45,935 bases of DNA from Bacteroidota bacterium (lineage in GTDB: Bacteria; Bacteroidota; Bacteroidia; Chitinophagales; Chitinophagaceae): positions 1-45,935 of the forward strand of contig JAFDXA010000293.1 in the NCBI GenBank assembly GCA_018268185.1, read 5' to 3'. Shown here piece by piece: positions 1-14,780 of this stretch; position 1 is the first letter of the stretch; each line of letters opens with the position of its first letter. The position numbers were made by a program, and so were the translations under genes. The notes under the pieces were generated by a model, which was given only the letters and a program-made list of their open reading frames with translations, made no database searches and had not been told where the DNA came from.

Positions 1-1120
1 TGTACATTGGTTTGGCCAGTTCTTCAATATGGCCACCGGATAAATGCTCGTTCGGGAAACCGATCCTTGCATTTAAACCGGTAACATATTCAGTTAACTG
101 TATAAGATGCTTTAACTGTGATCCACCACCGGTTAAGATGATGCCACCGTTAAGCATGCGGTTGTCGAGTCCAACCTGTTTCAGATGGTAAGCAACGAAA
201 TCCATGATTTCACTCATGCGTGCCTGGATGATGTTGGCAAGGTTCTTCACCGAAATTTCTTTTGGTGCCATGCCCCGTAGCCCAGGTATTGTGATGTAAG
301 CATTAGACTTGGCTTCATCGCTCAGTGCGCTGCCGAACTGTATCTTCATCTGTTCAGCCTGTGTTTTTAAAACACCGAGCCCTGTTTTGATATCATTGGT
401 GATGTTCTCTCCGCCGAATGGTATAACAGCTGTATGCTTCAGAATACCTTCATAGAAAACAGCGAGGTCTGTGGTTCCACCACCGATATCAACAATAGCA
501 ACACCAGCTTCCAGATCCTGGTCGCACATTACTGCTGCAGCTGATGCCAATGGTTGCAATACGAGATCTTTGGTACGCAGGCCTGCTTTTTCTACACTGC
601 GGTTGATATTGCGGATAGCATTTTTATCGCCTGTTATGATGTGGAAATTCGCTCCCACTTTTACACCGCTGTAACCGATCGGGTTTGGAATATTCTGAAA
701 ATTATCAACAGTGAATTCCTGTGGAATTACATCGATGATCTGGTCGCCTGCGGGAATATAAGTACGATACTGATCGGCCACGAGGCGATCGATCTCTTCC
801 TGTCTCACTTCTTCTTCGGTATTCTGGCGAACAATATCTCCTCTTGTCTGCAGGCTCTTGATATGATGACCTGCAATACCAACATATACTTCTCCTATCT
901 CCAGGTTTGGATTGGAAGCATAACAGTTTTCCAGGGCCTGCTGAATGGCTTTGATGGTTTGGTCGATGTTCAGTACCATACCATGTTGCACACCGTTGCT
1001 GTTGGCACGGCCAAAACCAAGGATCTCCAGCTTACCGAATTCATTTTTGCGGCCTGCTATAGCTGCAATTTTTGTGGTGCCGATGTCGAGGCCGACGATA
1101 ATGGGTTGTTCCTGATTCAT
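1..1120 (-). CDS. ftsA: Cell division protein FtsA (3' end runs off the window)
   Basis: Absent from the ORF track because it has no stop in the window. Manual translation from the ATG at 1120 gives MNQEQPIIVGLDIGTTKIAAIAGRKNEFGKLEILG, with the actin-like ATPase motif GLDIGTTK. It follows ftsQ. Confidence 0.97.
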   Translation of the reverse strand, partial: MNQEQPIIVGLDIGTTKIAAIAGRKNEFGKLEILGFGRANSNGVQHGMVLNIDQTIKAIQQALENCYASNPNLEIGEVYVGIAGHHIKSLQTRGDIVRQNTEEEVRQEEIDRLVADQYRTYIPAGDQIIDVIPQEFTVDNFQNIPNPIGYSGVKVGANFHIITGDKNAIRNINRSVEKAGLRTKDLVLQPLASAAAVMCDQDLEAGVAIVDIGGGTTDLAVFYEGILKHTAVIPFGGENITNDIKTGLGVLKTQAEQMKIQFGSALSDEAKSNAYITIPGLRGMAPKEISVKNLANIIQARMSEIMDFVAYHLKQVGLDNRMLNGGIILTGGGSQLKHLIQLTEYVTGLNARIGFPNEHLSGGHIEELAKPMY

Positions 1121-1158
1121 AGTTTGTATTTTTTGTGTTGTATGTTTTGTTTGTGTTT

Positions 1159-2340
1159 TTAATAATCATTTTTTTTGGGCATCACCGCTTTTGGCTTTGC
1201 TGCTGCCGGCTTGGGTTTCTGCGGTGCTACCTTCTTAGGCGGCGCCGGTTTAACAGGCAGTTTGGCTGATGGCCTGGCTGCTGGCTTTGCAACAGGCTTT
1301 GCCGGTGCCGGCGTAACCGGTTTAGGAATCACCGGTGCTGCCCCCAATTTTTCTTGTGGTTTAGGTTCTTCATTAGTATCAGGAGAATATGCTGCGTCGT
1401 CACGTTCAATAGATTGCTGAATCATACTGCTATCGTTCTCCTTTCGCTCTTCCTGCATCACTGCGTGAATTGAATCTTCAGTCCACCGGGCTGCATTGGC
1501 TGCAATGATGTCCATCATCTGAATGGTGCGTAGTGAATCGGAACTCACATCATCCTTACCCCGGATCTTCGCCACGACCTGGTTTTTATATTGCAGATTG
1601 ATAATGCTGTACTTACTCCATCCCATCTGCAGCATCACTTTTTTATAGAACAGTTTCAGCTTCCTGAATTTGGCTGCCGCATCGGATGCATCACCGAAAA
1701 CGATCACCTGGTTGCCGATCTTGGGAACCATTTCAAATGTCCGCTGTGAAGTAATATCCACCTGGTCGATCATGGCCATCAGGAAAGAATCTGCCTGTAT
1801 CTGTGTGCTTAGATCCCTGATATCGCCGAGCAATGAACTATCAGGCTTAGTCAGAATTCTTGCTTCCGATGGAAACCCTGTGAATACCGGAACACGTGCT
1901 GAAAATTTCTCGCTCAGCGGAAGCATCTTCGTTGTATTATCAATGTAAAATGTATTTCCACCCGGTGTAAAAACCCTTGCTATGGGTTCTCTTTCAGCTA
2001 CAGCAACCTGCAGTACTTCATTGTTATCAAAGAACATTTCTGCTTCTTTAATCCACACATCTTTCTTCAAAGCGCTTTCCATTTTTACCAGGTCGAAATC
2101 GGCAATTGGCTTTCCTACAGCACCGGCTCCTGCAAAATGGTTTATGATCTTCAGCACATCTGCTTTATCAATAAAGAAATTATTGCTTACTCCCGAGATA
2201 TTCACTTCAATACCGCGGCATTTTTTGGTATCTTTTTTATTCACCGCCGCAACCAGCAATACAATACTGCCTGCACCCAGCAGCACCCAAAGTGTTCCCA
2301 GCAGGATGTTTTTAATATTATATCGCTTTTTATTTTCCAT
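1159..2340 (-). CDS. ftsQ: Cell division protein FtsQ/DivIB-like, with a long low-complexity C-terminal tail
   Basis: Single N-terminal TM helix, POTRA-like region (LVKMESALKKDVWIKEAEMF, EREPIAR), position between murC and ftsA, and a Pro/Ala/Lys-rich tail. Confidence 0.88.
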   Translation of the reverse strand: MENKKRYNIKNILLGTLWVLLGAGSIVLLVAAVNKKDTKKCRGIEVNISGVSNNFFIDKADVLKIINHFAGAGAVGKPIADFDLVKMESALKKDVWIKEAEMFFDNNEVLQVAVAEREPIARVFTPGGNTFYIDNTTKMLPLSEKFSARVPVFTGFPSEARILTKPDSSLLGDIRDLSTQIQADSFLMAMIDQVDITSQRTFEMVPKIGNQVIVFGDASDAAAKFRKLKLFYKKVMLQMGWSKYSIINLQYKNQVVAKIRGKDDVSSDSLRTIQMMDIIAANAARWTEDSIHAVMQEERKENDSSMIQQSIERDDAAYSPDTNEEPKPQEKLGAAPVIPKPVTPAPAKPVAKPAARPSAKLPVKPAPPKKVAPQKPKPAAAKPKAVMPKKNDY

Positions 2341-2361
2341 TACACTGTTGTTACAATGCTT

Positions 2362-3714
2362 TTATTGAATTACTTTTTTAATGGGCTCAACCAGCATATC
2401 TATATCTCCTGCTCCTGCCGTAATCAGAAAAACCGGTTTTGTGTTCTTCATTTCTTCCAGCAACGCTTCTTTGCTTAATACCCTGGCATTACTGTGTTTC
2501 ATCCTGTTCAATATCATTTCACTGTTCACAGCTTCCATTGGCTTTTCCCTGGCCGGGTATATTGGCAACAGTATGAGTTCGTCGGCCATGCTGAGCACTT
2601 CTGCAAACCCATCAGCAAAATCATTTGTTCTGCTGAACAGGTGTGGCTGAAAAACCACTGTGCATTTCTGGCCGGGGAACAATCCCTTTGCGCCATTGAT
2701 CAGAACCCTCAGTTCTTCAGGGTGGTGTGCATAATCATCGATCATCACCCGTTCATCATTCTTGATGATGTATTCGAACCTCCGTTTCACACCCCGGAAT
2801 GAGGCCACAGCTGCCCTTATTTTATCATCTTCAATTCCTACATGCTTTGCAACTGCGATCGCAGCTACAGCATTCTCAATATTGTGCATGCCCCCCATAT
2901 TCAATTCAACATCTTTTATCAACTCGCCTTTTATTTCCAGGTCAAAAACATAAGATCCTTTGCTGATCTTAATGTTAACCGGATGCACATCTGCTGCTGA
3001 ATCACTAACACTGTAACTGATCTTCGCTGCTTTGAATTCATCACTTCTTTTTAAAACCGATTTGTAGATCAGCAAGCCGCCTGGTTTTACCTGGTTGGCA
3101 AATTCTACAAAAGCATCCTGGAGATTTTCGGGTGTTCCGTAAATATCCAGGTGATCAGGATCCATGGCTGTGATCACAGCTATGTCAGGAAAGAGTTTCA
3201 AAAAACTCCTGTCATATTCATCAGCTTCTGCCACAGATACATTTTTCTCGCTATACCAGAAATTAGTTGCATAATTACTGGCAATACCGCCGAGAAAGGC
3301 ATTGCAGCCAAAGCCACTATCGCGTAATATGTGTGCCACCATGGAACTTGTTGTTGTTTTACCGTGGGTACCTGCTATGCAGATGCTGTAAGTTCCTTTT
3401 GTGATCATTCCCAACACATCACTGCGTTTTAAAACAGTATAATGATGGCTGAGCAGGTAGTTATACTCTTTGTGATCTTTGGGAACTGCCGGCGTATACA
3501 CAACCAGTTCTGCTTCTTTGTCAATGAGCTCTGTATTATCTTCAAAATGAATACTGATACCTTCCTGTTGCAACTTATCAGTTAACGGTGTTGGTGTTTT
3601 ATCGTAACCACTCACCCTTACACCATTGCTGTTAAAATACCGGGCCAGGGCACTCATTCCTATTCCACCAATGCCGAGGAAATAAACTGCTTTTATATCT
3701 TTCAGGTCTTTCAA
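2362..3714 (-). CDS. murC: UDP-N-acetylmuramate--L-alanine ligase
   Basis: Motifs GIGGIGMSALA, GTHGKTTTS, EADEYDRSF and DDYAHHP. Confidence 0.98.
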   Translation of the reverse strand: MKDLKDIKAVYFLGIGGIGMSALARYFNSNGVRVSGYDKTPTPLTDKLQQEGISIHFEDNTELIDKEAELVVYTPAVPKDHKEYNYLLSHHYTVLKRSDVLGMITKGTYSICIAGTHGKTTTSSMVAHILRDSGFGCNAFLGGIASNYATNFWYSEKNVSVAEADEYDRSFLKLFPDIAVITAMDPDHLDIYGTPENLQDAFVEFANQVKPGGLLIYKSVLKRSDEFKAAKISYSVSDSAADVHPVNIKISKGSYVFDLEIKGELIKDVELNMGGMHNIENAVAAIAVAKHVGIEDDKIRAAVASFRGVKRRFEYIIKNDERVMIDDYAHHPEELRVLINGAKGLFPGQKCTVVFQPHLFSRTNDFADGFAEVLSMADELILLPIYPAREKPMEAVNSEMILNRMKHSNARVLSKEALLEEMKNTKPVFLITAGAGDIDMLVEPIKKVIQ

Positions 3715-3715
3715 T

Positions 3716-4843
3716 TTATTTCCCGATCGTTTTTAAAATTTCATTAGCAATAATCGTGTCGGCATTCGCAATCCCCAATCCGCCAATATTATTAATCATT
3801 TCCTGTTGCAGGTTCGCATTCTTTGATAATTCAATAACGGCCGGCACCAACTTATTCAACGCTTCTCCGTCTTTTATCATGATGGCGGCGTTTTTATTAA
3901 CTAAACTTTGTGCATTAGCCGTTTGGTGATCCTCCGCCGCAAACGGGTATGGCACAAATATCACCGGCTTTTTTACAAGGCAAAGTTCTGCTACTGCCAT
4001 GGCACCGCTCCTGCTGATTACCATATCTGCCGCTGTATAAGCATATTCCATTTCTTTTAAGAAATCATTAGCATATACATTGCTCTTTCCCTTACTTCTT
4101 TCGATGGCTTTCGACAAATAAGGTTTACCGGTTTGCCAGATCAACTGCAGATCATTCTCTGCAAACAGGTCAATATCCTTATCAACTGCTTCATTGATAT
4201 TTTTGGCCCCAAGGCTTCCGCCGATGCTCAGCACTGTTTTCTTTGTGGTATCCAATCCGAAATAACGCAAGGCCTGTTCTTTGGTGATTGAATGGCTGAT
4301 GATCGACTGCCTTACTGGGTTACCGCTGACCATGATCTTTGAGGCGGGGAAAAATTTTTCCATGCCATCTGATGCCGTGAAAATTCTTGTAGCCTTTTTG
4401 CCGAGCATGATGTTTGCTTTACCGGCAAACGAATTGCTTTCGTGTATGAATGTTGGTATTCCTTTCGATTGTGCATACCGCAGCACTGGGAAACTGGAAT
4501 AGCCACCAACACCAATTACAGCATCTGGTTTAAAATTTTTCACGATCCCTGCAACCTGGAAAAAACTCTTAACCAGTTTAAAAGGAAGGCTTATATTTTT
4601 TATCAAAGAACTTCTGTTGAAACCCGCTATCGTTAACCCTACAATTTCATATCCAGCCTGCGGAACTTTTTCCATTTCCATTTTCCCTGCAGCGCCTACG
4701 AATAAAAAGACTGTACCGGGCGCCTGCTTTTTTATTGCATTGGCAATGGCAATAGCAGGAAAAATATGCCCGCCTGTTCCACCTCCTGCAATAATGACCT
4801 TTGCTGCAGATCCGCTATCACCGTTTCTATTCATAGCACTCAT
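3716..4843 (-). CDS. murG: Lipid II N-acetylglucosaminyltransferase MurG
   Basis: Motifs GGGTGGHIFPA, GNPVR, GGSLGA and HQTANA. Confidence 0.98.
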   Translation of the reverse strand: MSAMNRNGDSGSAAKVIIAGGGTGGHIFPAIAIANAIKKQAPGTVFLFVGAAGKMEMEKVPQAGYEIVGLTIAGFNRSSLIKNISLPFKLVKSFFQVAGIVKNFKPDAVIGVGGYSSFPVLRYAQSKGIPTFIHESNSFAGKANIMLGKKATRIFTASDGMEKFFPASKIMVSGNPVRQSIISHSITKEQALRYFGLDTTKKTVLSIGGSLGAKNINEAVDKDIDLFAENDLQLIWQTGKPYLSKAIERSKGKSNVYANDFLKEMEYAYTAADMVISRSGAMAVAELCLVKKPVIFVPYPFAAEDHQTANAQSLVNKNAAIMIKDGEALNKLVPAVIELSKNANLQQEMINNIGGLGIANADTIIANEILKTIGK

Positions 4844-6142
4844 TTATTCTGCAACCTCCTCTTCTTCTGTTTCTGCATTTGTTTCCTGTACAGGAACAGG
4901 CTTCAGTTTGCCTTCCTGTTGCTCCACATTTCTTGCAACACTCAATATGATGCCAATCGCCAGGCAGGTAAACAGAAAACTACTTCCACCCATACTTACC
5001 AGCGGAAGCGTAACCCCTGTATTCGGAAACAGGTTTACATTTACTCCCATATTGGCGATCGCCTGGATCACCAACGTAAAACTGAGCGCCAATGCGAGGA
5101 AGGCTCCAAAAGCATAAGGACATTTTTGGTAAAGCCTGATACACCTGAAAAGGAAAAGCAGGTAGATGCCAAGAATTACCGCAGCTCCCAGTAAGCCATA
5201 CTCTTCTATGATGATGGCATAAATGAAATCACTATAGCTGTGCGGCAAAAAGTTTCTTTGCAGGCTATTCCCCGGCCCACGTCCCAGCCAGCCACCATTC
5301 GCAATAGCGATCTTGGCCTGGTTTATCTGGTAAGATTTTTCATTGTCATCTTCTTTCTTACTGTAAACAAAAGTCTGGATCCTGCTGATCCATGTGGGAA
5401 TACGACCTGCAGCAAGCACAGCAGGTAATTTTTTTGTTTCCCCTGTTTTGGAATCATAAGTTGCCACTGCGAGTGATAACAACAATACGATCGGGATAGC
5501 TGCAATGCCAAGCGTATATAAAATATGTTTTGTACTTACCCTTCCGATGAACATGATCATCAGGCTTGTACCAAATATCAGCAATGAAGTAGACAGGTTT
5601 GCCGGCGCCACCAACAGGCAGATGATTGCAACCGGAACAATGATCGGCAGAAAACCTTTTTTGAAATCTTTGATCACATTCTGTTTGCGGCTGAGCTGCC
5701 GGCTCATATACATGAACAGGGCAAGCTTGGCCAGGTCAGATGTCTGGAACGTCATGTTGATTACCGGTAGTTTGATCCAGCGACTTCCCGCATTCAGCTG
5801 CACACCAAACAACAAGGTGTAAAGCAGGAGCGGTATGGAAGCAAGGAATAAGATCAATGCCACCCTTGAGTACACAGCATAATTAATACGGTGTGCAAAG
5901 TAGATGATGATCAAACCAAGTATAATAAAAGCAAACTGTTTAAAAAGATAACTCTCTGTACTCTTGCTCATACGGTAGGCCAGTGAACCGGTACTGCTGT
6001 ACACCAGCAACAGGCTGGCCAGTGTTAATATGATCACGAGAGCCCATATAAACTTATCCCCGCGTGTTTTACTCACGAGGTTATCACCCATGTTACTGAA
6101 TGAGGGTGTAAGTATTGACCGTATGTTTATATTTTCCGACAT
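4844..6142 (-). CDS. ftsW: SEDS peptidoglycan glycosyltransferase FtsW
   Basis: Multi-TM protein with AGSRWI, SDFIYAIIIEEYG and TGVTLPLVSMGGSS; dcw position. Confidence 0.95.
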   Translation of the reverse strand: MSENINIRSILTPSFSNMGDNLVSKTRGDKFIWALVIILTLASLLLVYSSTGSLAYRMSKSTESYLFKQFAFIILGLIIIYFAHRINYAVYSRVALILFLASIPLLLYTLLFGVQLNAGSRWIKLPVINMTFQTSDLAKLALFMYMSRQLSRKQNVIKDFKKGFLPIIVPVAIICLLVAPANLSTSLLIFGTSLMIMFIGRVSTKHILYTLGIAAIPIVLLLSLAVATYDSKTGETKKLPAVLAAGRIPTWISRIQTFVYSKKEDDNEKSYQINQAKIAIANGGWLGRGPGNSLQRNFLPHSYSDFIYAIIIEEYGLLGAAVILGIYLLFLFRCIRLYQKCPYAFGAFLALALSFTLVIQAIANMGVNVNLFPNTGVTLPLVSMGGSSFLFTCLAIGIILSVARNVEQQEGKLKPVPVQETNAETEEEEVAE

Positions 6143-6160
6143 CGAAGTGTCTCAGTTCGT

Positions 6161-7501
6161 TTATAAATTCTTTACTGCCTGTTTGAATTGCTTTCCCCTG
6201 TCTTCATAGTTCTTGAAGAGGTCGAAGCTGGCGCAGGCCGGACTCAGCAAAACCACATCACCCTTATTGGCAAAATGAAAAGCTGCCTGAACGGCTTCAT
6301 CTGCATTGGTTGTATTCAGCATCAGCGAAACAATGTCGCCAAATGCCTCGTGTATCTTCCTGTTATCAGTCCCCATGCACACTATCGCCTTCACTTTTTC
6401 CTTAACCAGGTCTGTAAGCAGGTTATAGTCATTGCCTTTATCAACACCACCCAGGATAAGGATCACGGGTTTGGTCATACTTTCGAGTGCATACCAGGTG
6501 CTGTTTATATTGGTTGCTTTACTGTCATTGATAAATTCAACTCCTTTGATCGTAGCCACATGTTCCATGCGGTGTTCCAGGCTTTCAAATGTCTGAAGCG
6601 CTTCCCTGATCTTTTCTTTTCTTATGTCAACGGCTGTTGCAGCCATACTTGCAGCCATACTGTTGTATTGATTGTGTTTTCCTTTAATAGTAAAATCCTC
6701 TACGCTCATGCGCATTTCTTCAGCTTTCCATTTGAGGTGCATCTGTGCATTGGTCAGGTAAGCTCCTTGTGGCAGTTCTTTGTTCATGGTAATGGGGGCT
6801 TGGCTTGATTTAATGGGATAATGAGTCAGGTATTTCATAGTCATTTCATCATCGAGGTTGTAAATGAAAACATCATTTTCAACCTGGTTTTCTGCTATCC
6901 TGAATTTGCTGTGTGCATAATTTTCGATCTTGTAATCGTAACGGTCGAGGTGATCTTCCGTTATATTAGTTAGCACGGCAACGTCAGGCCTGAATGTGAT
7001 GATATCATCCAGTTGAAAAGAACTTATTTCGGCTACATACAATTGCTTCGGATCTTCTGCCACTTGTTTTGCAAATGAGTAACCGATATTTCCGACCAAA
7101 GCACAATCTTTACCGGCGTGTTTGCAGATGTGATAGATGAGGGAAGTGGTGGTGGTTTTACCATTACTCCCGGTAATCGCGATCACTTTACTGTTACCGA
7201 TAAACCTGAATGCGAATTCGATCTCACTGATCACCGGGATCTTCTGCGCCCTGATCTTTTTCATGATCGAAGCCTTTTCCGGTATCCCCGGGCTTTTGAT
7301 CACTTCCGAGGCATTCAAGATCTTCGCTTCGGTGTGACCTGACTCTTCGAAAGCTATGTTGGCTTCCGACAGTTCTGCCCGGTACTTTTCGGCGATCATT
7401 CCGCCATCGCTCACAAAAACATCATAGCCTTTTTTATTTGCCAGTAGGGCGGCGCCAATGCCGCTTTCCCCTGCTCCTAATATGACTATCCTTTTTTGCA
7501 T
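6161..7501 (-). CDS. murD: UDP-N-acetylmuramoyl-L-alanine--D-glutamate ligase
   Basis: Motifs ITGSNGKTTT, DHLDRY, NDSKATN and LSPACASFD. Confidence 0.98.
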   Translation of the reverse strand: MQKRIVILGAGESGIGAALLANKKGYDVFVSDGGMIAEKYRAELSEANIAFEESGHTEAKILNASEVIKSPGIPEKASIMKKIRAQKIPVISEIEFAFRFIGNSKVIAITGSNGKTTTTSLIYHICKHAGKDCALVGNIGYSFAKQVAEDPKQLYVAEISSFQLDDIITFRPDVAVLTNITEDHLDRYDYKIENYAHSKFRIAENQVENDVFIYNLDDEMTMKYLTHYPIKSSQAPITMNKELPQGAYLTNAQMHLKWKAEEMRMSVEDFTIKGKHNQYNSMAASMAATAVDIRKEKIREALQTFESLEHRMEHVATIKGVEFINDSKATNINSTWYALESMTKPVILILGGVDKGNDYNLLTDLVKEKVKAIVCMGTDNRKIHEAFGDIVSLMLNTTNADEAVQAAFHFANKGDVVLLSPACASFDLFKNYEDRGKQFKQAVKNL

Positions 7502-7523
7502 GCTCTACCTGCACATTCAGATA

Positions 7524-7826
7524 AAAATTGGTTTTTCAACAGCATAGAATTTAACAGGGATAGCTGGTGTTCCCGTTAGCTAAAAAGTGGTTCTTCAATA
7601 GTATTGATATTTACAGGACAACATCTTCCTGGTTTCAATACCGCAGGATTTTATTAAAAGTGGTTCTTCAAGAGCATAGAATTTAACAGGTATCTTTATT
7701 AAATCCGTTTAACTCAAAAAGTGGTTCTTCAATAGTATTGACTTTTACAGGACAAATTTTCCTGGCAAGAATACTGTTGTGCATTCAGGATAAAATTGGT
7801 TTTTCAACAGCATAGAATTTAACAGG
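7524..7826. repeat. Array of five 35-nt direct repeats with 24/38/26/40-nt spacers (CRISPR-like layout, no cas genes)
   Basis: Copies at 7524-7558, 7583-7617, 7656-7690, 7717-7751 and 7792-7826. Consensus AAAA(T/G)TGGTT(T/C)TTCAA(C/T/G)AG(C/T)AT(A/T)GA(A/T/C)(T/A)TT(A/T)ACAGG. 27 of 35 positions are invariant and copies 1 and 5 are identical. Confidence 0.95.
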
Positions 7827-7906
7827 TCGGGCAATTTCACAGGTAAAGCTGTATATGAACGAAAGAACCAAGACCTGCATGAGCAGGCAAACTTCTTCTC
7901 TACTTC

Positions 7907-9220
7907 TTACCTTAATTTGAGTGTGCCGATTGCCAGCGCCACACACAATATTGTTATGATCCAGAACCGCACTGCTATCTTACTCTCATGATAACCTAAC
8001 TTTTGATAATGATGATGAAGCGGACTCATCAGGAACACCCTTCTCCCTTCACCATATTTTTTCTTCGTGTATTTGAAATAGCTCACCTGTATCACCACGC
8101 TCAGGTTTTCCACGAGGAAAATGAAACAGAATATCGGTATCAGTAATTCTTTCCTCACAATGATTGCCAGCGCTGCTATGATACCACCAAGTGCCAGGCT
8201 TCCCGTATCTCCCATAAACACTTGCGCAGGGTAAGCATTGTACCAGAGAAAACCGATACAGGCTCCTACAAATGCTGCAATGAATATGGACAACTCCCCG
8301 ATATTCGGTATGTACATAATATTGAGATACTCTGCCAGTTTTATATTACCACTCAGGTAAGCGAATATGCCGAGGCAGATACCGATCACCGCACTTACTC
8401 CTGTTGCCAATCCATCCAGCCCGTCTGTTATGTTTGCACCATTGCTTACTGCCGTTACAATGAGTATCACAATGATGATATACAGGATATAGGTGAATCC
8501 TTCCATCGCTTTGGGCAGCAGTTTTGCATAATTGAATTCATGGTTCTTTACAAAGGGTATGGTTGTGATCGGTGTTTTAACTTTTACAAACAGGTGCTCT
8601 TTTCCATCAAGCCTTACCACATGAAAAGAATCACTCATCAGTTTCTCACCACGGTTCAAATGTGATTTCACAAATTCCAGGTCAGGATTATAAACCTCTC
8701 TTTCTACAACCACGCTTTTTGTAAAGTACAGTGTTGCCCCAACGATGATCCCCAGCATCACCTGTCCGAAAATTTTAAACCTCCCCGCCAAACCATCCGC
8801 ATCTGTTTTCTTATAATCAATTCCTTTTTCTTTGGCGATGCGTTTCGCTTTTATTTTGAGATAATCATCAATAAAACCGATGGCTCCCAACCAAACCGTA
8901 CAGAGCAACATAAGCCTGATGTATACTTTGTTGAGATCTGCCAGCAACAGAGTTGGTATGATGATGGCCAGGATCAGGATGATACCCCCCATTGTTGGTG
9001 TTCCTTTTTTCTGCTGCTCACCTGCCAGGCCAAGATCCCTTACTGTTTCACCCAACTGCTTTTTCTGCAATAGGCGGATCAGGCGTTTTCCATAAACTGT
9101 TGTAATGATCAGCGAGAGCATCAACGCCAGGATAACCCTGAACGAGATGAACCTGAAAAGAGCGCTCCCAGAGAAATGGAAGTTTTCTTTTGTGAGCCAA
9201 TCAAAAAAATGATACAACAT
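7907..9220 (-). CDS. mraY: Phospho-N-acetylmuramoyl-pentapeptide transferase
   Basis: Motifs [32 protein letters not shown] and PLHHHY. Confidence 0.98.
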
Positions 9221-9259
9221 ATTGGTTACGCAGCCGGGGACGCCAGCTTATTGTTTAAT

Positions 9260-10720
9260 TTATTTTTCCAGCAATTCGAACATTTCCCTCAACACCTTCT
9301 TGTCATCAAAATCATGCTTCACACCTTTGATCTCCTGGTATTTTTCATGACCTTTTCCAGCTACAAGCACTATATCTTCTTTGTCACTCAAACTCACTGC
9401 CGTTTTAATCGCTTCCTTCCTGTCGGCTATGGTGATGTATTTCTTCCTCGCCGCAATGTTTACGCCCGCCTCCATTTCTTTGAGGATTTCCATTGGATCT
9501 TCATTTCTTGGATTATCGGAAGTGAAGATCACCCTGTCGCTGTATTCACAGGCTACTTCTGCCATAACGGGGCGTTTGGTTTTATCCCTGTTCCCGCCGC
9601 AACCAACAACTGTAATTACCTGTTCATTTCCATGCCTGAGATTTTTAATCGTGGCAAGTACATTAAGCAGCGCATCCGGCGTATGAGCATAGTCAACTAT
9701 GCCTACAATATGTTTATTGGCGCTGAGTATATAATCAAATCTTCCTTCAGCTCCCGACAAACCACTCAGCACCTGCAATACAGTGGTCTTATCCTGCCCC
9801 AGGCAAACTGCCGTACCAAAAACAGCCAGCAGGTTGTAGGCGTTGAACTCACCGATCATTTTAAAATGAACATCTGTTTCATTGATGGCAAGATGTAATC
9901 CACTTAAACTGTTATCAAGGATCTTTCCTTTAAAATCAGCCATTGTTTTAAGGCTGTAGAAATATTTTTTTGCTGCTGTATTCTGCAGCATCACTGTTCC
10001 TCTTTTATCATCGGCATTGCTGATGGCGAAAGCTGACCGGGGCAAAGCATCGAACCATGATTTTTTTACCCTGATGTATTCCTCAAAAGTTTTATGATAA
10101 TCCAGGTGATCGTGGGTAATATTGGTAAAGATGGCACCGGTAAACAATAAGCCTGTGATGCGATGCTGCTGAATAGCATGACTGCTGCATTCCATGAAAA
10201 CATATTCGCAGCCTTCATCCAGCATTTCCCTTAACAGTTTATTCAGGCTGATGGCATCCGGTGTTGTATGGGTAGCTTCAATAACCCTGTTGCCAACCTG
10301 GTTCTGAACCGTACTGATCAAACCACAGGTATAGCCAAGCGAAGTGAACAGGTTCCGAAGCAGTGTTGCTACTGTTGTTTTGCCATTTGTTCCTGTTACG
10401 CCAACCAGCTTGAGTTTACTACTTGGTTCGCCATAAAAATTATGGCTCATGTAACCGGCTGCAGCAGCAGAATTTTCAACCTGTACATAGGTGATACCTT
10501 CTTTCATTTGCAGTGGCATGGTTTCGCAGATGATGGCAACAGCCCCATCTTCTACCGCCTTGTCAATGAACTGGTGACCGTCAACAGTTGTTCCTACCAA
10601 CGCAATAAAGCAACTGCCCGCAGTAATTTTGCGGGAATCCGTTTGCAGGTCTTTCACTTCTACAGAAGTGCTTCCATTAACAGATTTGATGTTTACTTTA
10701 TATAGTATGTCGTTCAACAT
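9260..10720 (-). CDS. murE: UDP-MurNAc-tripeptide synthetase (meso-DAP ligase)
   Basis: Motifs VTGTNGKTT, DHLDYH and DYAHTPD, plus the DNPR motif associated with meso-DAP specificity. Confidence 0.98.
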   Translation of the reverse strand: MLNDILYKVNIKSVNGSTSVEVKDLQTDSRKITAGSCFIALVGTTVDGHQFIDKAVEDGAVAIICETMPLQMKEGITYVQVENSAAAAGYMSHNFYGEPSSKLKLVGVTGTNGKTTVATLLRNLFTSLGYTCGLISTVQNQVGNRVIEATHTTPDAISLNKLLREMLDEGCEYVFMECSSHAIQQHRITGLLFTGAIFTNITHDHLDYHKTFEEYIRVKKSWFDALPRSAFAISNADDKRGTVMLQNTAAKKYFYSLKTMADFKGKILDNSLSGLHLAINETDVHFKMIGEFNAYNLLAVFGTAVCLGQDKTTVLQVLSGLSGAEGRFDYILSANKHIVGIVDYAHTPDALLNVLATIKNLRHGNEQVITVVGCGGNRDKTKRPVMAEVACEYSDRVIFTSDNPRNEDPMEILKEMEAGVNIAARKKYITIADRKEAIKTAVSLSDKEDIVLVAGKGHEKYQEIKGVKHDFDDKKVLREMFELLEK

Positions 10721-10726
10721 GCTTTC

Positions 10727-12907
10727 TCAATTAAGCACCAGGACTATCCGCTGGCCTTTTTTAAATAACTGGCCGGGTGCTATGCTCTGGTTGATCACCC
10801 TTCCCCTCCCTGATACTGATGTTACAAACCCCTTGTTTTCGAGGAGGTAAACCGCATCTTTCAATCCCATACCGGAAACATTTGGTGTTATATTATCCGA
10901 TGTTATGTAGGTGATCTTTGTACTGTCGGTCACCTGCATTTTCAGCATGGCAGCATTGTACTGCATCTTCAGTGTACGCCAGTATCCGGAATTGGATGAA
11001 TCAATTGAAGTCATATCCAGATATTTGAATATGGACTGCATATCATTCCTGTTCCCGTAATAATTATAAGCCAGTGTATCAGGTATTTTAGGCAGATCAA
11101 GAGATGCCTTGCTCAGGTAATGATTGTAAATACGATCACTGATCTCTTTAAATACACGTCCAGACACATCGGCTCCGTAAATCAGTTTTGATTCGTTACT
11201 GTTCTGTATTACCACTGCCATGGTGTATTTCGGATTCTCGGAAGGGAAATAACCGATAAAGGAAGCCTGGTATATTTTATTTCCTTTGTTATAACCTTTA
11301 TTGTTCAATGCCGTTACTGCTGTTCCTGTTTTACCGGAAATAGAGTACACACTATCGAACAAAACTTTGTGGCCTGTACCATGAGTACTGTCTACAACAG
11401 CTTTCAGGCATTCCTTCAGTTGAACAAGTGTTTCAGCGCTGCATATCTTCTCTTCCAATACCTGTGGCTGAACCTGCTTTACAACAACGCCATAATCTTC
11501 GATGGCACTAACCAGGTAAGGCCTCATCATCCTGCCATTATTTGCAACAGCATTGTATACCATGAGCATGTGTAATGGTGTTACGAGTTCACCATACCCA
11601 TGTGCCATATAGGGAATGGATGTTGCGTGCCAGTATTTGCTACTGGGTTTATAGATGATGGGATTGCCTGATGATGCAGTTATGTCTACACCCGTTGGCA
11701 GGTCAAGCCTGAGTTTGTGAAGATGTTCAGTAAACTTCTCGGGCTGGTTGTGATAATACTGATCGGCCAGTTTTGCAAACGCCACATTACTGCTTCGCAG
11801 GAAAGCATCTTTTACGGTGATTTGTCCGGCACCCAGGTGTGAATCTTTTATCCGCAGGCCATAAAAGTATTTGGCGCCGCCTTCACAATCCACAATTGAA
11901 TTCTTATCAACATACTTGTCTTCCAGCAGGCTGATCAGTGTTGCCAGTTTGAAGATGGAACCCGGTTCAGTACGTTTACCAATACCATAGTTAAGATCTT
12001 CATCGTACACGCTGTTACCATCCTTGTCTTTTTTTACCGATCCATCAGGATTTTTTTGCTGCCCGAGGTTAGCGATTGCTTTTATTTTGCCAGTAGCTGT
12101 TTCCATTACGATGGCAGTTCCGTGAATGGAATTGTTATCAACGAGCATTTTCATCAATGCATTCTCTGCCACGTCCTGCATGTATGTGTCGATGGTTGAA
12201 ATAATATTACTTCCGTTCACCGGATCAACTTCAGCGCCTTCTACCGGCATATATGCACCGGCAGCATAACGCATCAGGCGTTGACCGGTTGTACCACGGA
12301 GCAAACTGTCGTAAGTACGTTCCAGACCAACATTTTTGGAAGAATCATCTCTTGACAGCCCAACGGTCCTGTTTGCCAGTAATACGTAAGGATTGATGCG
12401 CTTATCCCTGGGGTCGACGATGATACCGCTTTTATTTCTCCCCTGTCTTACCAGCGGGAAATTGCGGAACTGTTTGAATTCGTCGAATGAGATTTTCCTT
12501 TTCAATAAATAATAGCGCTCTTTATTGTTATAAGCCAGTTGTAATTGTTTTTTGTATTCTGCAGCCGTTTTATCTTTAAAAAGATCAGCCATGCAAATGC
12601 TCAGCGAATCAATATTGTCTTTAAATCGTTTGCCAGCTTTTTCCCTCAATCCATCAGCCATGAAATCAACATAGATATCAAAAATGGGAACCGATGTACT
12701 CAACATGTTTCCATCTTCACTGTAAATGGTTCCCCGCTCGGCCTCAATGGGCTGGTATTTTAAATGAAGGCTGTCGCCCATACCTACCCAATATTTTCCC
12801 TGTACCTGCTGAATGTATACAGCCCTTCCCAAAACCATCACCCCCAGTAATATGATGCCCAGGAAGCATAGGTACACCCTCCACAATATGTCTTTTTTTA
12901 CTTCCAC
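10727..12907 (-). CDS. ftsI: Class B penicillin-binding protein FtsI/PBP3 with a C-terminal PASTA domain
   Basis: N-terminal TM, ERGTIY, SxxK (SIFK), SSN and KTGT motifs, PASTA-like C-terminus (PNVSGMGLKDAVYLLEN). Confidence 0.93.
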   Translation of the reverse strand: MEVKKDILWRVYLCFLGIILLGVMVLGRAVYIQQVQGKYWVGMGDSLHLKYQPIEAERGTIYSEDGNMLSTSVPIFDIYVDFMADGLREKAGKRFKDNIDSLSICMADLFKDKTAAEYKKQLQLAYNNKERYYLLKRKISFDEFKQFRNFPLVRQGRNKSGIIVDPRDKRINPYVLLANRTVGLSRDDSSKNVGLERTYDSLLRGTTGQRLMRYAAGAYMPVEGAEVDPVNGSNIISTIDTYMQDVAENALMKMLVDNNSIHGTAIVMETATGKIKAIANLGQQKNPDGSVKKDKDGNSVYDEDLNYGIGKRTEPGSIFKLATLISLLEDKYVDKNSIVDCEGGAKYFYGLRIKDSHLGAGQITVKDAFLRSSNVAFAKLADQYYHNQPEKFTEHLHKLRLDLPTGVDITASSGNPIIYKPSSKYWHATSIPYMAHGYGELVTPLHMLMVYNAVANNGRMMRPYLVSAIEDYGVVVKQVQPQVLEEKICSAETLVQLKECLKAVVDSTHGTGHKVLFDSVYSISGKTGTAVTALNNKGYNKGNKIYQASFIGYFPSENPKYTMAVVIQNSNESKLIYGADVSGRVFKEISDRIYNHYLSKASLDLPKIPDTLAYNYYGNRNDMQSIFKYLDMTSIDSSNSGYWRTLKMQYNAAMLKMQVTDSTKITYITSDNITPNVSGMGLKDAVYLLENKGFVTSVSGRGRVINQSIAPGQLFKKGQRIVLVLN

Positions 12908-12945
12908 GCCAACCGTAGTATTATTTGGTTTTTCTTTCTTTAAAC

Positions 12946-13284
12946 TTACCTGGTACTGTCTGTTAACTGAACGGGTGGCTTTTTAAGTTCCCGTAATCCC
13001 AGAGGTTCTACTGCTTTTACCAATTCACTCGCCTTGCTTCTGAATATCACTTCGCTTTTGATCGATTTATATTCATATTCCAGTTCTTTAATGTTTTTCT
13101 CACTGGTTGCGATCTTTCTTACCAGTTTATCGGCATAGTGACCATTGTAGATATATGCAACAGCCAGGGCCGACAGGAAAAGGAAGAAAGGGATATTCTT
13201 TACGAGGAAACGGTAATTGAAAAATTTCTTCCAGTCGGATTTGCTATTTGCCGGCTGGCTTTTATTTACCTTTTCTTCACTCAT
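12946..13284 (-). CDS. ftsL: FtsL-like cell division protein
   Basis: Short protein with one TM and a coiled coil, between rsmH and ftsI. Confidence 0.85.
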   Translation of the reverse strand: MSEEKVNKSQPANSKSDWKKFFNYRFLVKNIPFFLFLSALAVAYIYNGHYADKLVRKIATSEKNIKELEYEYKSIKSEVIFRSKASELVKAVEPLGLRELKKPPVQLTDSTR

Positions 13285-13292
13285 TGTTTGTT

Positions 13293-14237
13293 TTACTTTT
13301 TAGAAGCGATCCTCAGTTTGGCGCTCCTGGACCTTGGATTTCTTTTGAGTTCATCTGCTCCTGCAACGATCGGTTTCTTTGTTATGATGTTGAAGGGTGA
13401 TTCATGCTTTCTTCCGAACACATCATCATCTTCCGTTTCATCAAAAGAACCCTTTTTAAAAAAGTTCTTTACAACCCGGTCTTCCAGCGAGTGGAAAGTG
13501 ATGATGGCAATTCTTCCGCCGGTTTTTAATACTTCGGTTGATTGCTGCAGCATCTCTTTCAGCACTTCCATTTCCTCATTCACTTCTATCCGCAAGGCCT
13601 GGAATACCTGGGCAAAATATTTGTTTGGGTTTCCTTTTACGATTGGCTGCAAAGCCTGTTTTAACTGGCTGATTGTTTTAACCGGAGCTATGACTCTCTG
13701 CGAAACAATCGTTCTTGCCAGGGTTTTGGCATTGGTTACCTCTCCGTATCTTTCAAACAGCTTGTGCAGTTGCGCTTCGCTGTATTTTTCAATTACTGTT
13801 GCAGCTGTGGCACTGTTGCGTGTGTCCATCCTCATGTCGAGGGCTGCATCAAATCTTGTTGAGAACCCTCTTGCTGCTTCATCAAACTGGTGACTTGAAA
13901 CGCCGAGATCTGCCAGTATACCATCTACTTTCGGACTCCTGTTCACCCTCAGGAAACGCTGGAGATGCCGGAAATTCTGTTGCACGAATGTCACCCGTTC
14001 GTCATCCGGCAGGTTTTGTTTTGCTTCAGCATCCTGGTCGAACACGATCAATCTTCCTTCGCTGTTAAGCTTTTCAAGTATCGCCCTGCTGTGTCCTCCA
14101 CCGCCAAATGTGCAATCCACATATGTGCCGCCTGGTTTTATCTCCAGTCCATTGATCACTTCTGAAAGAAGCACCGGAACATGGTATTGATCCCCGGCTG
14201 AAGCCCGACTGTCGTCTATTTGATGTTGGTCGGCCAT
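13293..14237 (-). CDS. rsmH: 16S rRNA m4C1402 methyltransferase
   Basis: Motifs HVPVLL, DCTFGGGGHS, DLGVSSHQ, FHSLEDR and NPRSRSAKLR. Confidence 0.98.
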   Translation of the reverse strand: MADQHQIDDSRASAGDQYHVPVLLSEVINGLEIKPGGTYVDCTFGGGGHSRAILEKLNSEGRLIVFDQDAEAKQNLPDDERVTFVQQNFRHLQRFLRVNRSPKVDGILADLGVSSHQFDEAARGFSTRFDAALDMRMDTRNSATAATVIEKYSEAQLHKLFERYGEVTNAKTLARTIVSQRVIAPVKTISQLKQALQPIVKGNPNKYFAQVFQALRIEVNEEMEVLKEMLQQSTEVLKTGGRIAIITFHSLEDRVVKNFFKKGSFDETEDDDVFGRKHESPFNIITKKPIVAGADELKRNPRSRSAKLRIASKK

Positions 14238-14243
14238 AACTTA

Positions 14244-14711
14244 TCAGCCCATCAGGCGGTCATCCTTTTTATTCATCACTTCATTGGCAAGGTTGCTGAA
14301 TGATTCTGATGAGAAGGAATCAAAGAACTGCTGGTATTTATTCTTGTCCCAGATTTCAATTTTGTTGATTGCAGAAACCAGCACAATGTCTTTCCCGAGC
14401 GAAGCATGGTCAAGCAGGTTTTTGGGCAAAAGGATCCTGCCTGCTGAATCAAGTTCGATCTGTACAGCTCCGTTCAAAAAATAACGCCTGAATTCCCTCA
14501 CTTTAGGGTCAAAATCATTCAGTTCGCTGATTTTTTTGTAGATGGGATCCCAACTTTGAATCGGGTATAACGTGAGGCATTTTTCGAACCCCCGGTTGAG
14601 CACAAAGACATGACTTTCCTGCTCCGGAAGCTGCTTTTTAAAGCCGGCCGGAAGTAGAAAGCGCCCTTTGGCATCAATTGTTGATTCGTATTCGCCAATA
14701 AACCCGATCAT
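14244..14711 (-). CDS. mraZ: dcw cluster transcriptional repressor MraZ
   Basis: Two DxxGR motifs (DAKGR, DSAGR); first gene of the dcw cluster. Confidence 0.97.
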   Translation of the reverse strand: MIGFIGEYESTIDAKGRFLLPAGFKKQLPEQESHVFVLNRGFEKCLTLYPIQSWDPIYKKISELNDFDPKVREFRRYFLNGAVQIELDSAGRILLPKNLLDHASLGKDIVLVSAINKIEIWDKNKYQQFFDSFSSESFSNLANEVMNKKDDRLMG

Positions 14712-14745: not shown

Positions 14746-14780
14746 AACACAAAATAACACATTTTCCCACTTTCAGACAC
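14746..14780 (-). promoter_or_regulatory. Four GTG-core boxes at 10-nt period: probable MraZ operator
   Basis: Minus strand reads GTGTC-tgaaa-GTGGG-aaaat-GTGTT-atttt-GTGTT, 35-69 nt upstream of the mraZ ATG. Confidence 0.75.

What the first reader, a model, noticed from the sequence alone, without database searches (positions are those of the whole stretch)
7502..7906. Gene-less repeat-spacer array inside the essential dcw operon, between mraY and murD
Seen: every other gap in this 12-gene cluster is 0-39 bp, but mraY-murD is 405 bp. It holds five 35-nt repeats (starts 7524, 7583, 7656, 7717, 7792; 27/35 positions invariant; first and last identical, and both preceded by CATTCAG) with spacers of 24, 38, 26 and 40 nt. 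A 7-bp direct repeat ACCTGCA (7507-7513, 7873-7879) brackets the array. No cas, toxin, transposase or reverse transcriptase gene is in the window. Known: the repeat length fits CRISPR repeats and ToxI-type antitoxin RNAs, but uneven, mutually related spacers fit neither. Inference: an undescribed structured-RNA array, non-autonomous element or protein-binding array, placed where it would be co-transcribed with, and could tune, murD-ftsW-murG-murC-ftsQ-ftsA.
Basis: partly seen in the sequence, partly recalled or inferred. Interest (0 to 1): 0.8.

Follow-up and report, generated by a model that had tools for sequence, protein, structure and literature searches.

The report
Tandem hairpin RNA inside dcw operon
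Between the cell-wall genes mraY and murD, many Chitinophagaceae bacteria carry a conserved non-coding element, here repeated five times, that matches no catalogued RNA family and is predicted to fold in the messenger RNA and likely tunes how much of the downstream cell-wall and division genes is expressed.

Summary
The array is real: five 35-nt repeats, 27/35 invariant, found nowhere else in the genome and tiled by independent DNA runs. It is not CRISPR, an antitoxin array, a small-ORF array or an insertion with target duplication. It is the amplified form of a non-coding element at the mraY-murD junction. 19 of 23 readable same-genus genomes (Ferruginibacter by record titles) carry it, in 1-6 copies; 4 have an empty junction. 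A single-module homologue occurs in 35 of 108 other Chitinophagaceae genera and 0 of 52 junctions outside the family. All 360 cores lie in the dcw sense direction. Each module is a 16-nt core (ATRCYNNTGAARAACC) at the 3' foot of a predicted hairpin whose 5' strand is the variable 'spacer', followed by a U-rich tract; a 5' hairpin after mraY shows covariation and G-U bias for the sense RNA. Structure support is moderate and absent outside the genus. RNA-library contigs from three studies cover the junction but not murD. Best reading (0.42): a cis-acting mRNA element that lowers or processes read-through into murD-ftsA. No Rfam match or paper found; the scan had not noted it on other DNA.

The parts
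7907..9220 (-). mraY, the upstream gene; its last ~60-75 nt are covered by the RNA-library contigs
7857..7906 (-). 5' hairpin domain just after the mraY stop: degenerate first motif copy (about 7892-7901), inner hairpin 7873-7888, partner strand 7861-7870
   Evidence: z -2.98; inner hairpin flagged; homologous helix 82% paired in 49 genus sequences
7835..7843 (-). semi-conserved linker (CCTGTGAAA on the sense strand) between the 5' hairpin and the first module
   Evidence: sequence; similar words after the helix in alignment A1
7792..7826 (-). repeat, subtype A, first in transcription order; core 7798-7813; U-rich tract follows
7717..7797 (-). module 2: spacer (predicted 5' strand) plus subtype B repeat 7717-7751; core 7723-7738
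   Evidence: z -1.05
7656..7722 (-). module 3: spacer plus subtype A repeat 7656-7690; core 7662-7677
   Evidence: z -3.64
7583..7661 (-). module 4: spacer plus subtype B repeat 7583-7617; core 7589-7604
   Evidence: z -1.88
7524..7588 (-). module 5: spacer plus subtype A repeat 7524-7558; core 7530-7545, ending 28 nt before the murD ATG
   Evidence: z -1.08
6161..7501 (-). murD, first downstream gene (then ftsW, murG, murC and the ORFs read as ftsQ and ftsA)

Best explanation
The array is a tandemly amplified, lineage-conserved non-coding element in the dcw operon that likely acts as RNA, each module being a predicted hairpin plus a conserved 16-nt core and U-rich tract that would be read by a host RNA-binding factor and would make part of the transcripts stop or be cut before murD. 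Shown: fixed site and orientation, nucleotide-level conservation of the core, 1-6 copies, repeated complete loss, and non-coding character. Supported but not proven: hairpin folding on the sense strand in Ferruginibacter, and an RNA over the junction that is better represented than its flanks. Inferred: a protein reader of the core; partial termination or processing at the modules, which would set murD-ftsW-murG-murC-ftsQ-ftsA below mraZ-mraY and leave a stable intercistronic fragment; copy number as a way to strengthen the effect. A possible switch (untested): the partner strand of the 5' hairpin is complementary to the first motif copy and also to the downstream cores. The first copy starts 6-10 nt after the mraY stop in 31 of 47 genus junctions, so a terminating ribosome could decide which pairing forms.
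For: Site and orientation: 112 of 119 genome-collection pattern hits and 118 of 119 metagenome hits lie at mraY/murD, and the rest are inside long ORFs. All 29 model hits with E<1e-3 in 121 family genomes are at this junction; 20 of them are training sequences. Cores: 360 sense, 0 antisense in 217 junctions. Selection: repeats differ 9.6%, spacers 23.6% and mraY third codon positions 22% in 29 close pairs. Two strains with 12-13 differences in 654 nt on the murD side have 0 in 7529-7821. RNA structure: the 5' domain has 82% of cells paired against 77.2 in shuffles (0/500), 38 double changes against 20, and slid controls of 38-55%. G-U wobble favours the sense strand 39:7 and 45:9. Modules fold better than with shuffled spacers in 117 of 154 and better with their own repeat than a foreign one in 108 of 154, or 49 of 74 loci. 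The final CC stays unpaired (p<=0.03). The own junction folds at z -2.77 sense and 0.04 antisense. At least 6 T lie in the 10 nt after the core in 206 of 301 sites. RNA-library contigs from 3 studies cover 7549-7983 only, three of four ending at 7962-7964, where DNA contigs go on. Precedent for partial termination and processing in a dcw transcript: UpsM (PMC8266604, abstract; PMC8625941, passages).
Against: RNAalifold found no consensus pairs in either alignment. Whole junctions fold no better than shuffles (mean z -0.34 in 40 genus and -0.12 in 38 family junctions). The family-type helix is 78% paired but shows no covariation (315/500; p 0.84 on 103 metagenome rows). For the modules the antisense strand does almost as well (109/154, 96/154), and a direct complement test of the core showed little or no signal. 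A cognate-duplex test of the first copy was negative (40 of 81, with a window that cut off many partners). The helix was named by eye on 49 of 63 candidate rows. The modules are not canonical terminators: the only site flagged is the inner 5' hairpin, at chance level, and other genera mostly lack the U tract. The RNA data are unstranded contigs of low depth from runs found with this stretch, so they are a weak hint. No binding protein was identified. The conservation estimate is biased, because loci were found by the repeat itself.
Confidence: 0.42

Rival explanations
1. DNA-level sites: tandem binding sites for a transcription factor, or internal promoters for an alternative sigma factor, that drive or block murD-ftsA.
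For: A contiguous, near-invariant 16-nt core with fixed internal spacing; no covariation outside the genus; weak 10.5-bp phasing of module lengths (R 0.15, p about 0.03 on non-independent rows).
Against: No other intergenic copy in the genome: the 9 other core matches are inside ORFs. The distance from the upstream conserved word to the core varies from 7 to 21 nt. G-U bias and spacer-repeat co-variation. RNA contigs cover the array rather than murD. The MraZ-type GTG boxes sit upstream of mraZ and look different.
Confidence: 0.15
2. A processive antitermination element like B. subtilis EAR: the folded RNA modifies RNA polymerase so that it completes the distal dcw genes.
For: Intercistronic position in a long operon, sense orientation and predicted structure; EAR precedent (PMC7858274, passage).
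Against: Only one sense-strand terminator-like site lies in 1-7500, and the total is at chance level. Lineages lose the element cleanly. The organism's own rrn boxA differs from the core. The RNA hint shows less signal over murD, not more.
Confidence: 0.12
3. A trans-acting small RNA cut from the dcw transcript, whose repeated cores sequester a protein (CsrB-like logic, recalled) or pair with other RNAs.
For: Multiple copies of one motif on hairpins; variable copy number; junction-restricted RNA contigs; UpsM acts in trans on dcw mRNAs (section title seen in the outline of PMC8266604).
Against: It never occurs at another locus; many genomes have one module; no intergenic partner sequence in the genome and none in two rRNA operons; no conserved promoter signature in the mraY end.
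Confidence: 0.12
4. A tandem riboswitch that senses a peptidoglycan precursor or related metabolite and controls read-through into murD.
For: High nucleotide invariance, position in front of a biosynthetic gene, alternative pairing possible, tandem arrangement.
Against: Conserved bases form one run on one strand, with no conserved multi-helix junction and no consensus fold; the distance to murD varies from 13 to 221 nt.
Confidence: 0.08
5. A site-specific non-autonomous mobile element or REP-like insertion without host function.
For: All-or-none presence: 4 genus genomes have a 4-32-nt junction; this junction holds a different repeat in 14 other genera.
Against: One locus per genome; lineage-specific subtypes; clustering on the MraY tree (13 changes against 30.4 shuffled); empty junctions nested among carriers; no target duplication; no match in viral contigs; slower change than third codon positions.
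Confidence: 0.05
6. An array of tiny upstream ORFs (the repeat reads PVKFYAxEKP in one frame and MLLKN in another).
For: Some variation looks conservative in both frames; 251 of 347 sites have an in-frame ATG in the second frame.
Against: Synonymous positions do not vary (TAT 202: TAC 0, TTC 198: TTT 3, AAC 328: AAT 3). 310 of 347 sites have no ATG in the first frame. TAG appears in 4 sites, ORF lengths run from 3 to 58, and 1-nt indels occur in 21 of 238 repeats.
Confidence: 0.04
7. An orphan CRISPR array or type III antitoxin array.
For: Repeat length of 35 nt only.
Against: Uneven, mutually related spacers that pair with the repeat; single-copy homologues; no Rfam match; no Cas1 or ToxN (whose control rang nowhere) in the 87%-complete genome.
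Confidence: 0.01

Closest known systems
UpsM / dcw 5' leader of Rhodobacter sphaeroides (PMC8266604, abstract and outline; PMC8625941, passages)
   Same: Non-coding RNA within a dcw transcript, linked there to partial termination, processing and read-through into dcw genes.
   Different: [quoted passage not shown] This element is intercistronic (mraY-murD), modular and present in 1-6 copies, gives no Rfam match, and has no known sRNA partner.
EAR (eps-associated RNA) of Bacillus subtilis (PMC7858274, passage)
   Same: Cis-acting RNA in an intergenic region inside a long operon.
   Different: EAR antiterminates; here the direction of the effect is untested and the hint points the other way. No Rfam match; tandem copies here.
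CsrB/RsmZ-type multi-motif sponge RNAs (recalled)
   Same: One short motif repeated on several hairpins.
   Different: The motif is 16 nt at the hairpin foot, not GGA in loops; the element is embedded in an operon; single-copy versions are common.
CRISPR arrays and ToxI-type antitoxin repeats (recalled)
   Same: Repeat length of about 35 nt in a direct array.
   Different: Spacers are related and predicted to pair with the repeat; no cas or toxin gene found; fixed core-genome site.
boxA (NusB/NusE site) and MraZ boxes (recalled)
   Same: Short oriented motif; superficial likeness to boxA; dcw context for MraZ.
   Different: The family's own rrn boxA-like word differs; the MraZ-type 10-nt-periodic GTG boxes lie upstream of mraZ.

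Membership tests
CRISPR array | Unique spacers of similar length | tested here: not met
   24/38/26/40 nt, alternate spacers related; modules 50-90 nt in relatives
CRISPR array | Known repeat family or cas genes | tested here: not met
   No Rfam hit; no Cas1 in an 86.75%-complete genome; CRISPRCasFinder not available
Type III antitoxin (ToxI-like) | Directly tandem repeats followed by a toxin ORF | tested here: not met
   Repeats are separated by spacers and followed by murD; ToxN search negative but without a ringing control; CptN and TenpN not searched
Mobile element / MITE / REP | Several genomic loci | tested here: not met
Mobile element / MITE / REP | Target-site duplication | tested here: not met
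Mobile element / MITE / REP | Empty site in relatives | tested here: met
   4 of 23 readable genus genomes, nested among carriers; also explained by loss
boxA | Matches the organism's rrn boxA | tested here: not met
   5 of 5 spacers from 4 family genomes share a different word
MraZ operator | GTG boxes at 10-nt period | tested here: not met
   Present at 14748-14780, not in the array
Upstream small ORFs | Conserved start and frame, synonymous variation | tested here: not met
Cis-regulatory structured RNA (general kind) | Fixed position and orientation to one gene | tested here: met
Cis-regulatory structured RNA (general kind) | Covariation-supported structure | tested here: inconclusive
   Positive in the genus; negative in other genera and by RNAalifold
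Cis-regulatory structured RNA (general kind) | Transcribed on the sense strand | tested here: inconclusive
   Unstranded RNA-library contigs cover it
Cis-regulatory structured RNA (general kind) | Changes downstream expression; ligand or protein bound | not testable with these tools
   Needs reporters, probing and pull-down
Intrinsic terminator | GC-rich stem directly followed by a U tract | tested here: not met
   No module flagged; one site in the 5' domain at chance level

The most novel reading that the evidence does not exclude
A copy-number-tuned, multivalent RNA control unit in the middle of the dcw operon: 1-6 modules, each sensing a cell-wall or division signal through a dedicated protein or a peptidoglycan precursor and coupled to ribosome termination on mraY, act in series to set the ratio of early to late dcw genes.
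Probability: 0.15. Interest if true: 0.85.

Novelty: new variant of a known kind. Interest (0 to 1): 0.55.

Why it matters
Post-transcriptional control inside the dcw operon is little described: my searches turned up only UpsM in Rhodobacter and nothing for Bacteroidota. A conserved element between mraY and murD, with natural 0-6-copy variants and close relatives that lack it, is a ready-made series for testing how cells balance lipid I synthesis against the later division genes. It may also lead to an unknown RNA-binding regulator. If it proves to be only an mRNA-stability element, it is a modest new RNA family.

Tried and rejected
Rfam: two chance-level hits far below threshold on the window and none at gathering score on 20 relative loci. 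Peptide reading in two frames rejected. boxA, MraZ site and target duplication rejected. A conserved promoter in the last 40 codons of mraY was not seen: synonymous positions vary freely. The sigma-70 and terminator scans are at chance level and do not cover Bacteroidota promoters. No pairing partner in two rRNA operons. No match in viral contigs. Whole-junction folding z-scores, RNAalifold, the first duplex test and family-type covariation gave no support; one search used a mis-registered structure and is replaced. The absence of murD cover in RNA runs is a hole in contigs and proves nothing alone. The 2-mismatch family pattern search gave mostly unrelated hits: 24 of 30 loci were not at the junction. 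The loose genus-wide pattern search added nothing usable. The careful tree did not finish; the quick tree has few supported branches. Three look-ups of earlier findings returned nothing on this element. Eight paper searches listed no description of it. The main texts of two motif surveys (PMC11109978, PMC8632094) do not mention Chitinophag-, Bacteroid- or mraY; their supplements were not read and could hold a related motif.

Full report
Observation. The junction is 405 bp, against 0-39 bp for the other gaps. The genome holds no further copy at up to 9 mismatches or by profile. Independent DNA runs tile the array. The copies alternate A-B-A-B-A, an order seen in 6 junctions.

Distribution. BLAST found the region in 19 of 24 same-genus genomes and 0 of 16 from other families, always beside murD. 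Of the five negatives, four have a junction of only 4-32 nt without any core, and one (71% complete) gave no murD. An exact pattern scan of the genome collection stopped at 119 loci, mostly titled Ferruginibacter or Chitinophagaceae; 112 lie at the junction and the other 7 are inside long ORFs. In 113 distinct complete junctions the strict core occurs 1, 2, 3, 4, 5 or 6 times in 37, 37, 16, 10, 11 and 2 cases; these were found through the repeat, so none can be empty. For other genera I read 108 of the 118 junctions located. 35 carry the strict core (the mraY end was located in 96), and a few more carry degenerate forms. None of 52 junctions from other families and orders does. A sequence model built only from non-Ferruginibacter copies gave 29 hits with E<1e-3 in 121 genomes, all at this junction by coordinates. 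20 were training sequences, 7 were new, and 2 were repeats of this window, which ties the array to the family element. 118 of 119 metagenome hits of the family pattern lie at mraY or murD. On MraY trees carriers cluster (13 changes against 30.4 shuffled; quick tree, 110 columns, 6 rows without a usable sequence), and the four empty genus junctions are nested among carriers (3 changes). Vertical descent with repeated complete loss is the simplest reading (inference).

Anatomy on the dcw sense strand. After the mraY stop comes a first, partial copy of the motif, an inner variable hairpin and a partner strand. A short linker follows, then one or more modules ending in the core ATRCYNNTGAARAACC and, in this genus, a U-rich tract. 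All 360 cores in 217 junctions are in sense orientation. In other genera the partner word is different (TGTGGTGCAG-like), there is usually one main core, and a CCG-containing word replaces the U tract.

Not coding. The repeat can be read as a peptide in two frames, which I pursued first. Synonymous positions are frozen, most sites lack a start in one frame, stops and 1-nt indels occur, and module lengths show no preference modulo 3. Selection acts on nucleotides: 152 of 1583 repeat positions differ in 29 close pairs, against 1325 of 5619 spacer positions and 22% of mraY third positions (one identical pair left out; biased by how loci were found). Strains X5 and X7 differ from the window at 12-13 of 654 positions on the murD side and at none in 7529-7821.

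Structure, for and against. For the 5' domain I aligned 49 of 63 candidate genus rows, leaving out 14 by eye as near-duplicates or doubtful rows, and named two helices. 82.2% of cells pair (shuffles 77.2, 0/500), with 38 double changes (20.3 expected), and slid registers give 38-55%. Wobble pairs favour the sense strand 39:7 and 45:9. A strict pattern for this hairpin is present in 47 of 117 genus junctions, and the window's own version folds at z -2.98. For 154 distinct modules from 74 loci, the repeat is the 3' strand and the spacer the 5' strand of one imperfect hairpin. 117 fold better than with a shuffled spacer and 108 better with their own than a foreign repeat of the same subtype (49 of 74 loci). 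Against: the antisense strand scores nearly as well for modules (109 and 96 of 154), and a direct complement test is flat. RNAalifold finds no consensus, whole junctions fold like shuffles, and duplex tests are weak (28 of 79 at p<=0.1 sense, 20 antisense). The family-type helix (23 of 27 rows) is complementary only at invariant positions. Structure is therefore moderately supported in the genus and unproven beyond it.

Expression hint. Four RNA-library runs from three studies hold near-identical contigs at 7721-7983, 7549-7962, 7730-7964 and 7739-7964, and none of this organism's murD or further mraY. DNA contigs run through 7964. Contigs give no strand or level, depth is low, and the runs were found with this stretch. 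This only hints at a junction RNA that outlasts or exceeds its flanks. No conserved promoter is visible in the mraY end, so processing is the likelier source of that end (inference).

Mechanism. I commit to a cis-acting mRNA element read by a host factor that causes partial termination or cleavage before murD, with tandem copies adding strength (0.42). Position, orientation, conservation and non-coding nature are shown; folding is supported; reader, direction and effect are inferred. The modules are not canonical terminators. Rivals are DNA sites or promoters (0.15), EAR-like antitermination (0.12), a trans-acting sponge (0.12), a riboswitch (0.08), a selfish insertion (0.05), small ORFs (0.04) and CRISPR or antitoxin (0.01).

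Comparison and novelty. It fails the tests for CRISPR, type III antitoxin, mobile repeat, boxA and MraZ operator. It may work like UpsM (PMC8266604, abstract and outline; PMC8625941, passages) or EAR (PMC7858274, passage), but shares no detected sequence family with them. Eight paper searches and two survey main texts gave no description; subscription papers and supplements were not seen. The scan's earlier notes held nothing on it. Verdict: a real, apparently undescribed, clade-restricted element of a known general kind with an unusual tandem amplification; interest 0.55.

Noticed in passing
window 14748-14780 (minus strand): Four GTG boxes at exact 10-nt spacing upstream of mraZ, as expected for an MraZ operator (pattern recalled).
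   Followed up: no
window 2-14711: No murF ORF lies in the 12-ORF cluster (best hits); its place elsewhere in the genome was not sought.
   Followed up: no
L200, L215, L220, L222, L224, L226, L228, L231, L233, L235, L238, L240, L243, L246 (mraY-murD junctions): 14 genera lacking the element carry a different shared repeat at the same junction, in either orientation, REP-like in look.
   Followed up: partly
L211 and L308 (mraY-murD junctions): A short extra reading frame appears to sit between mraY and murD (519-nt and 397-nt junctions); not identified.
   Followed up: no
G016:C9:453831-454993 (L508, L509): murD matches in two overlapping pieces with a stop in one, in a genome whose junction is empty; broken gene or assembly error.
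   Followed up: no
window 1364-1379: A core-like word inside the ORF read as ftsQ, in its low-complexity Pro/Ala/Lys-rich tail region; taken as chance.
   Followed up: partly
L280-L284 (rRNA spacers of four family genomes): A shared boxA-like word (AAGYTCTTTGACATATTGG) stands before the 23S gene in all five spacers.
   Followed up: partly
window 7549-7962: RNA run X16 holds a strain variant of the array with 10 substitutions and two 2-nt insertions.
   Followed up: no
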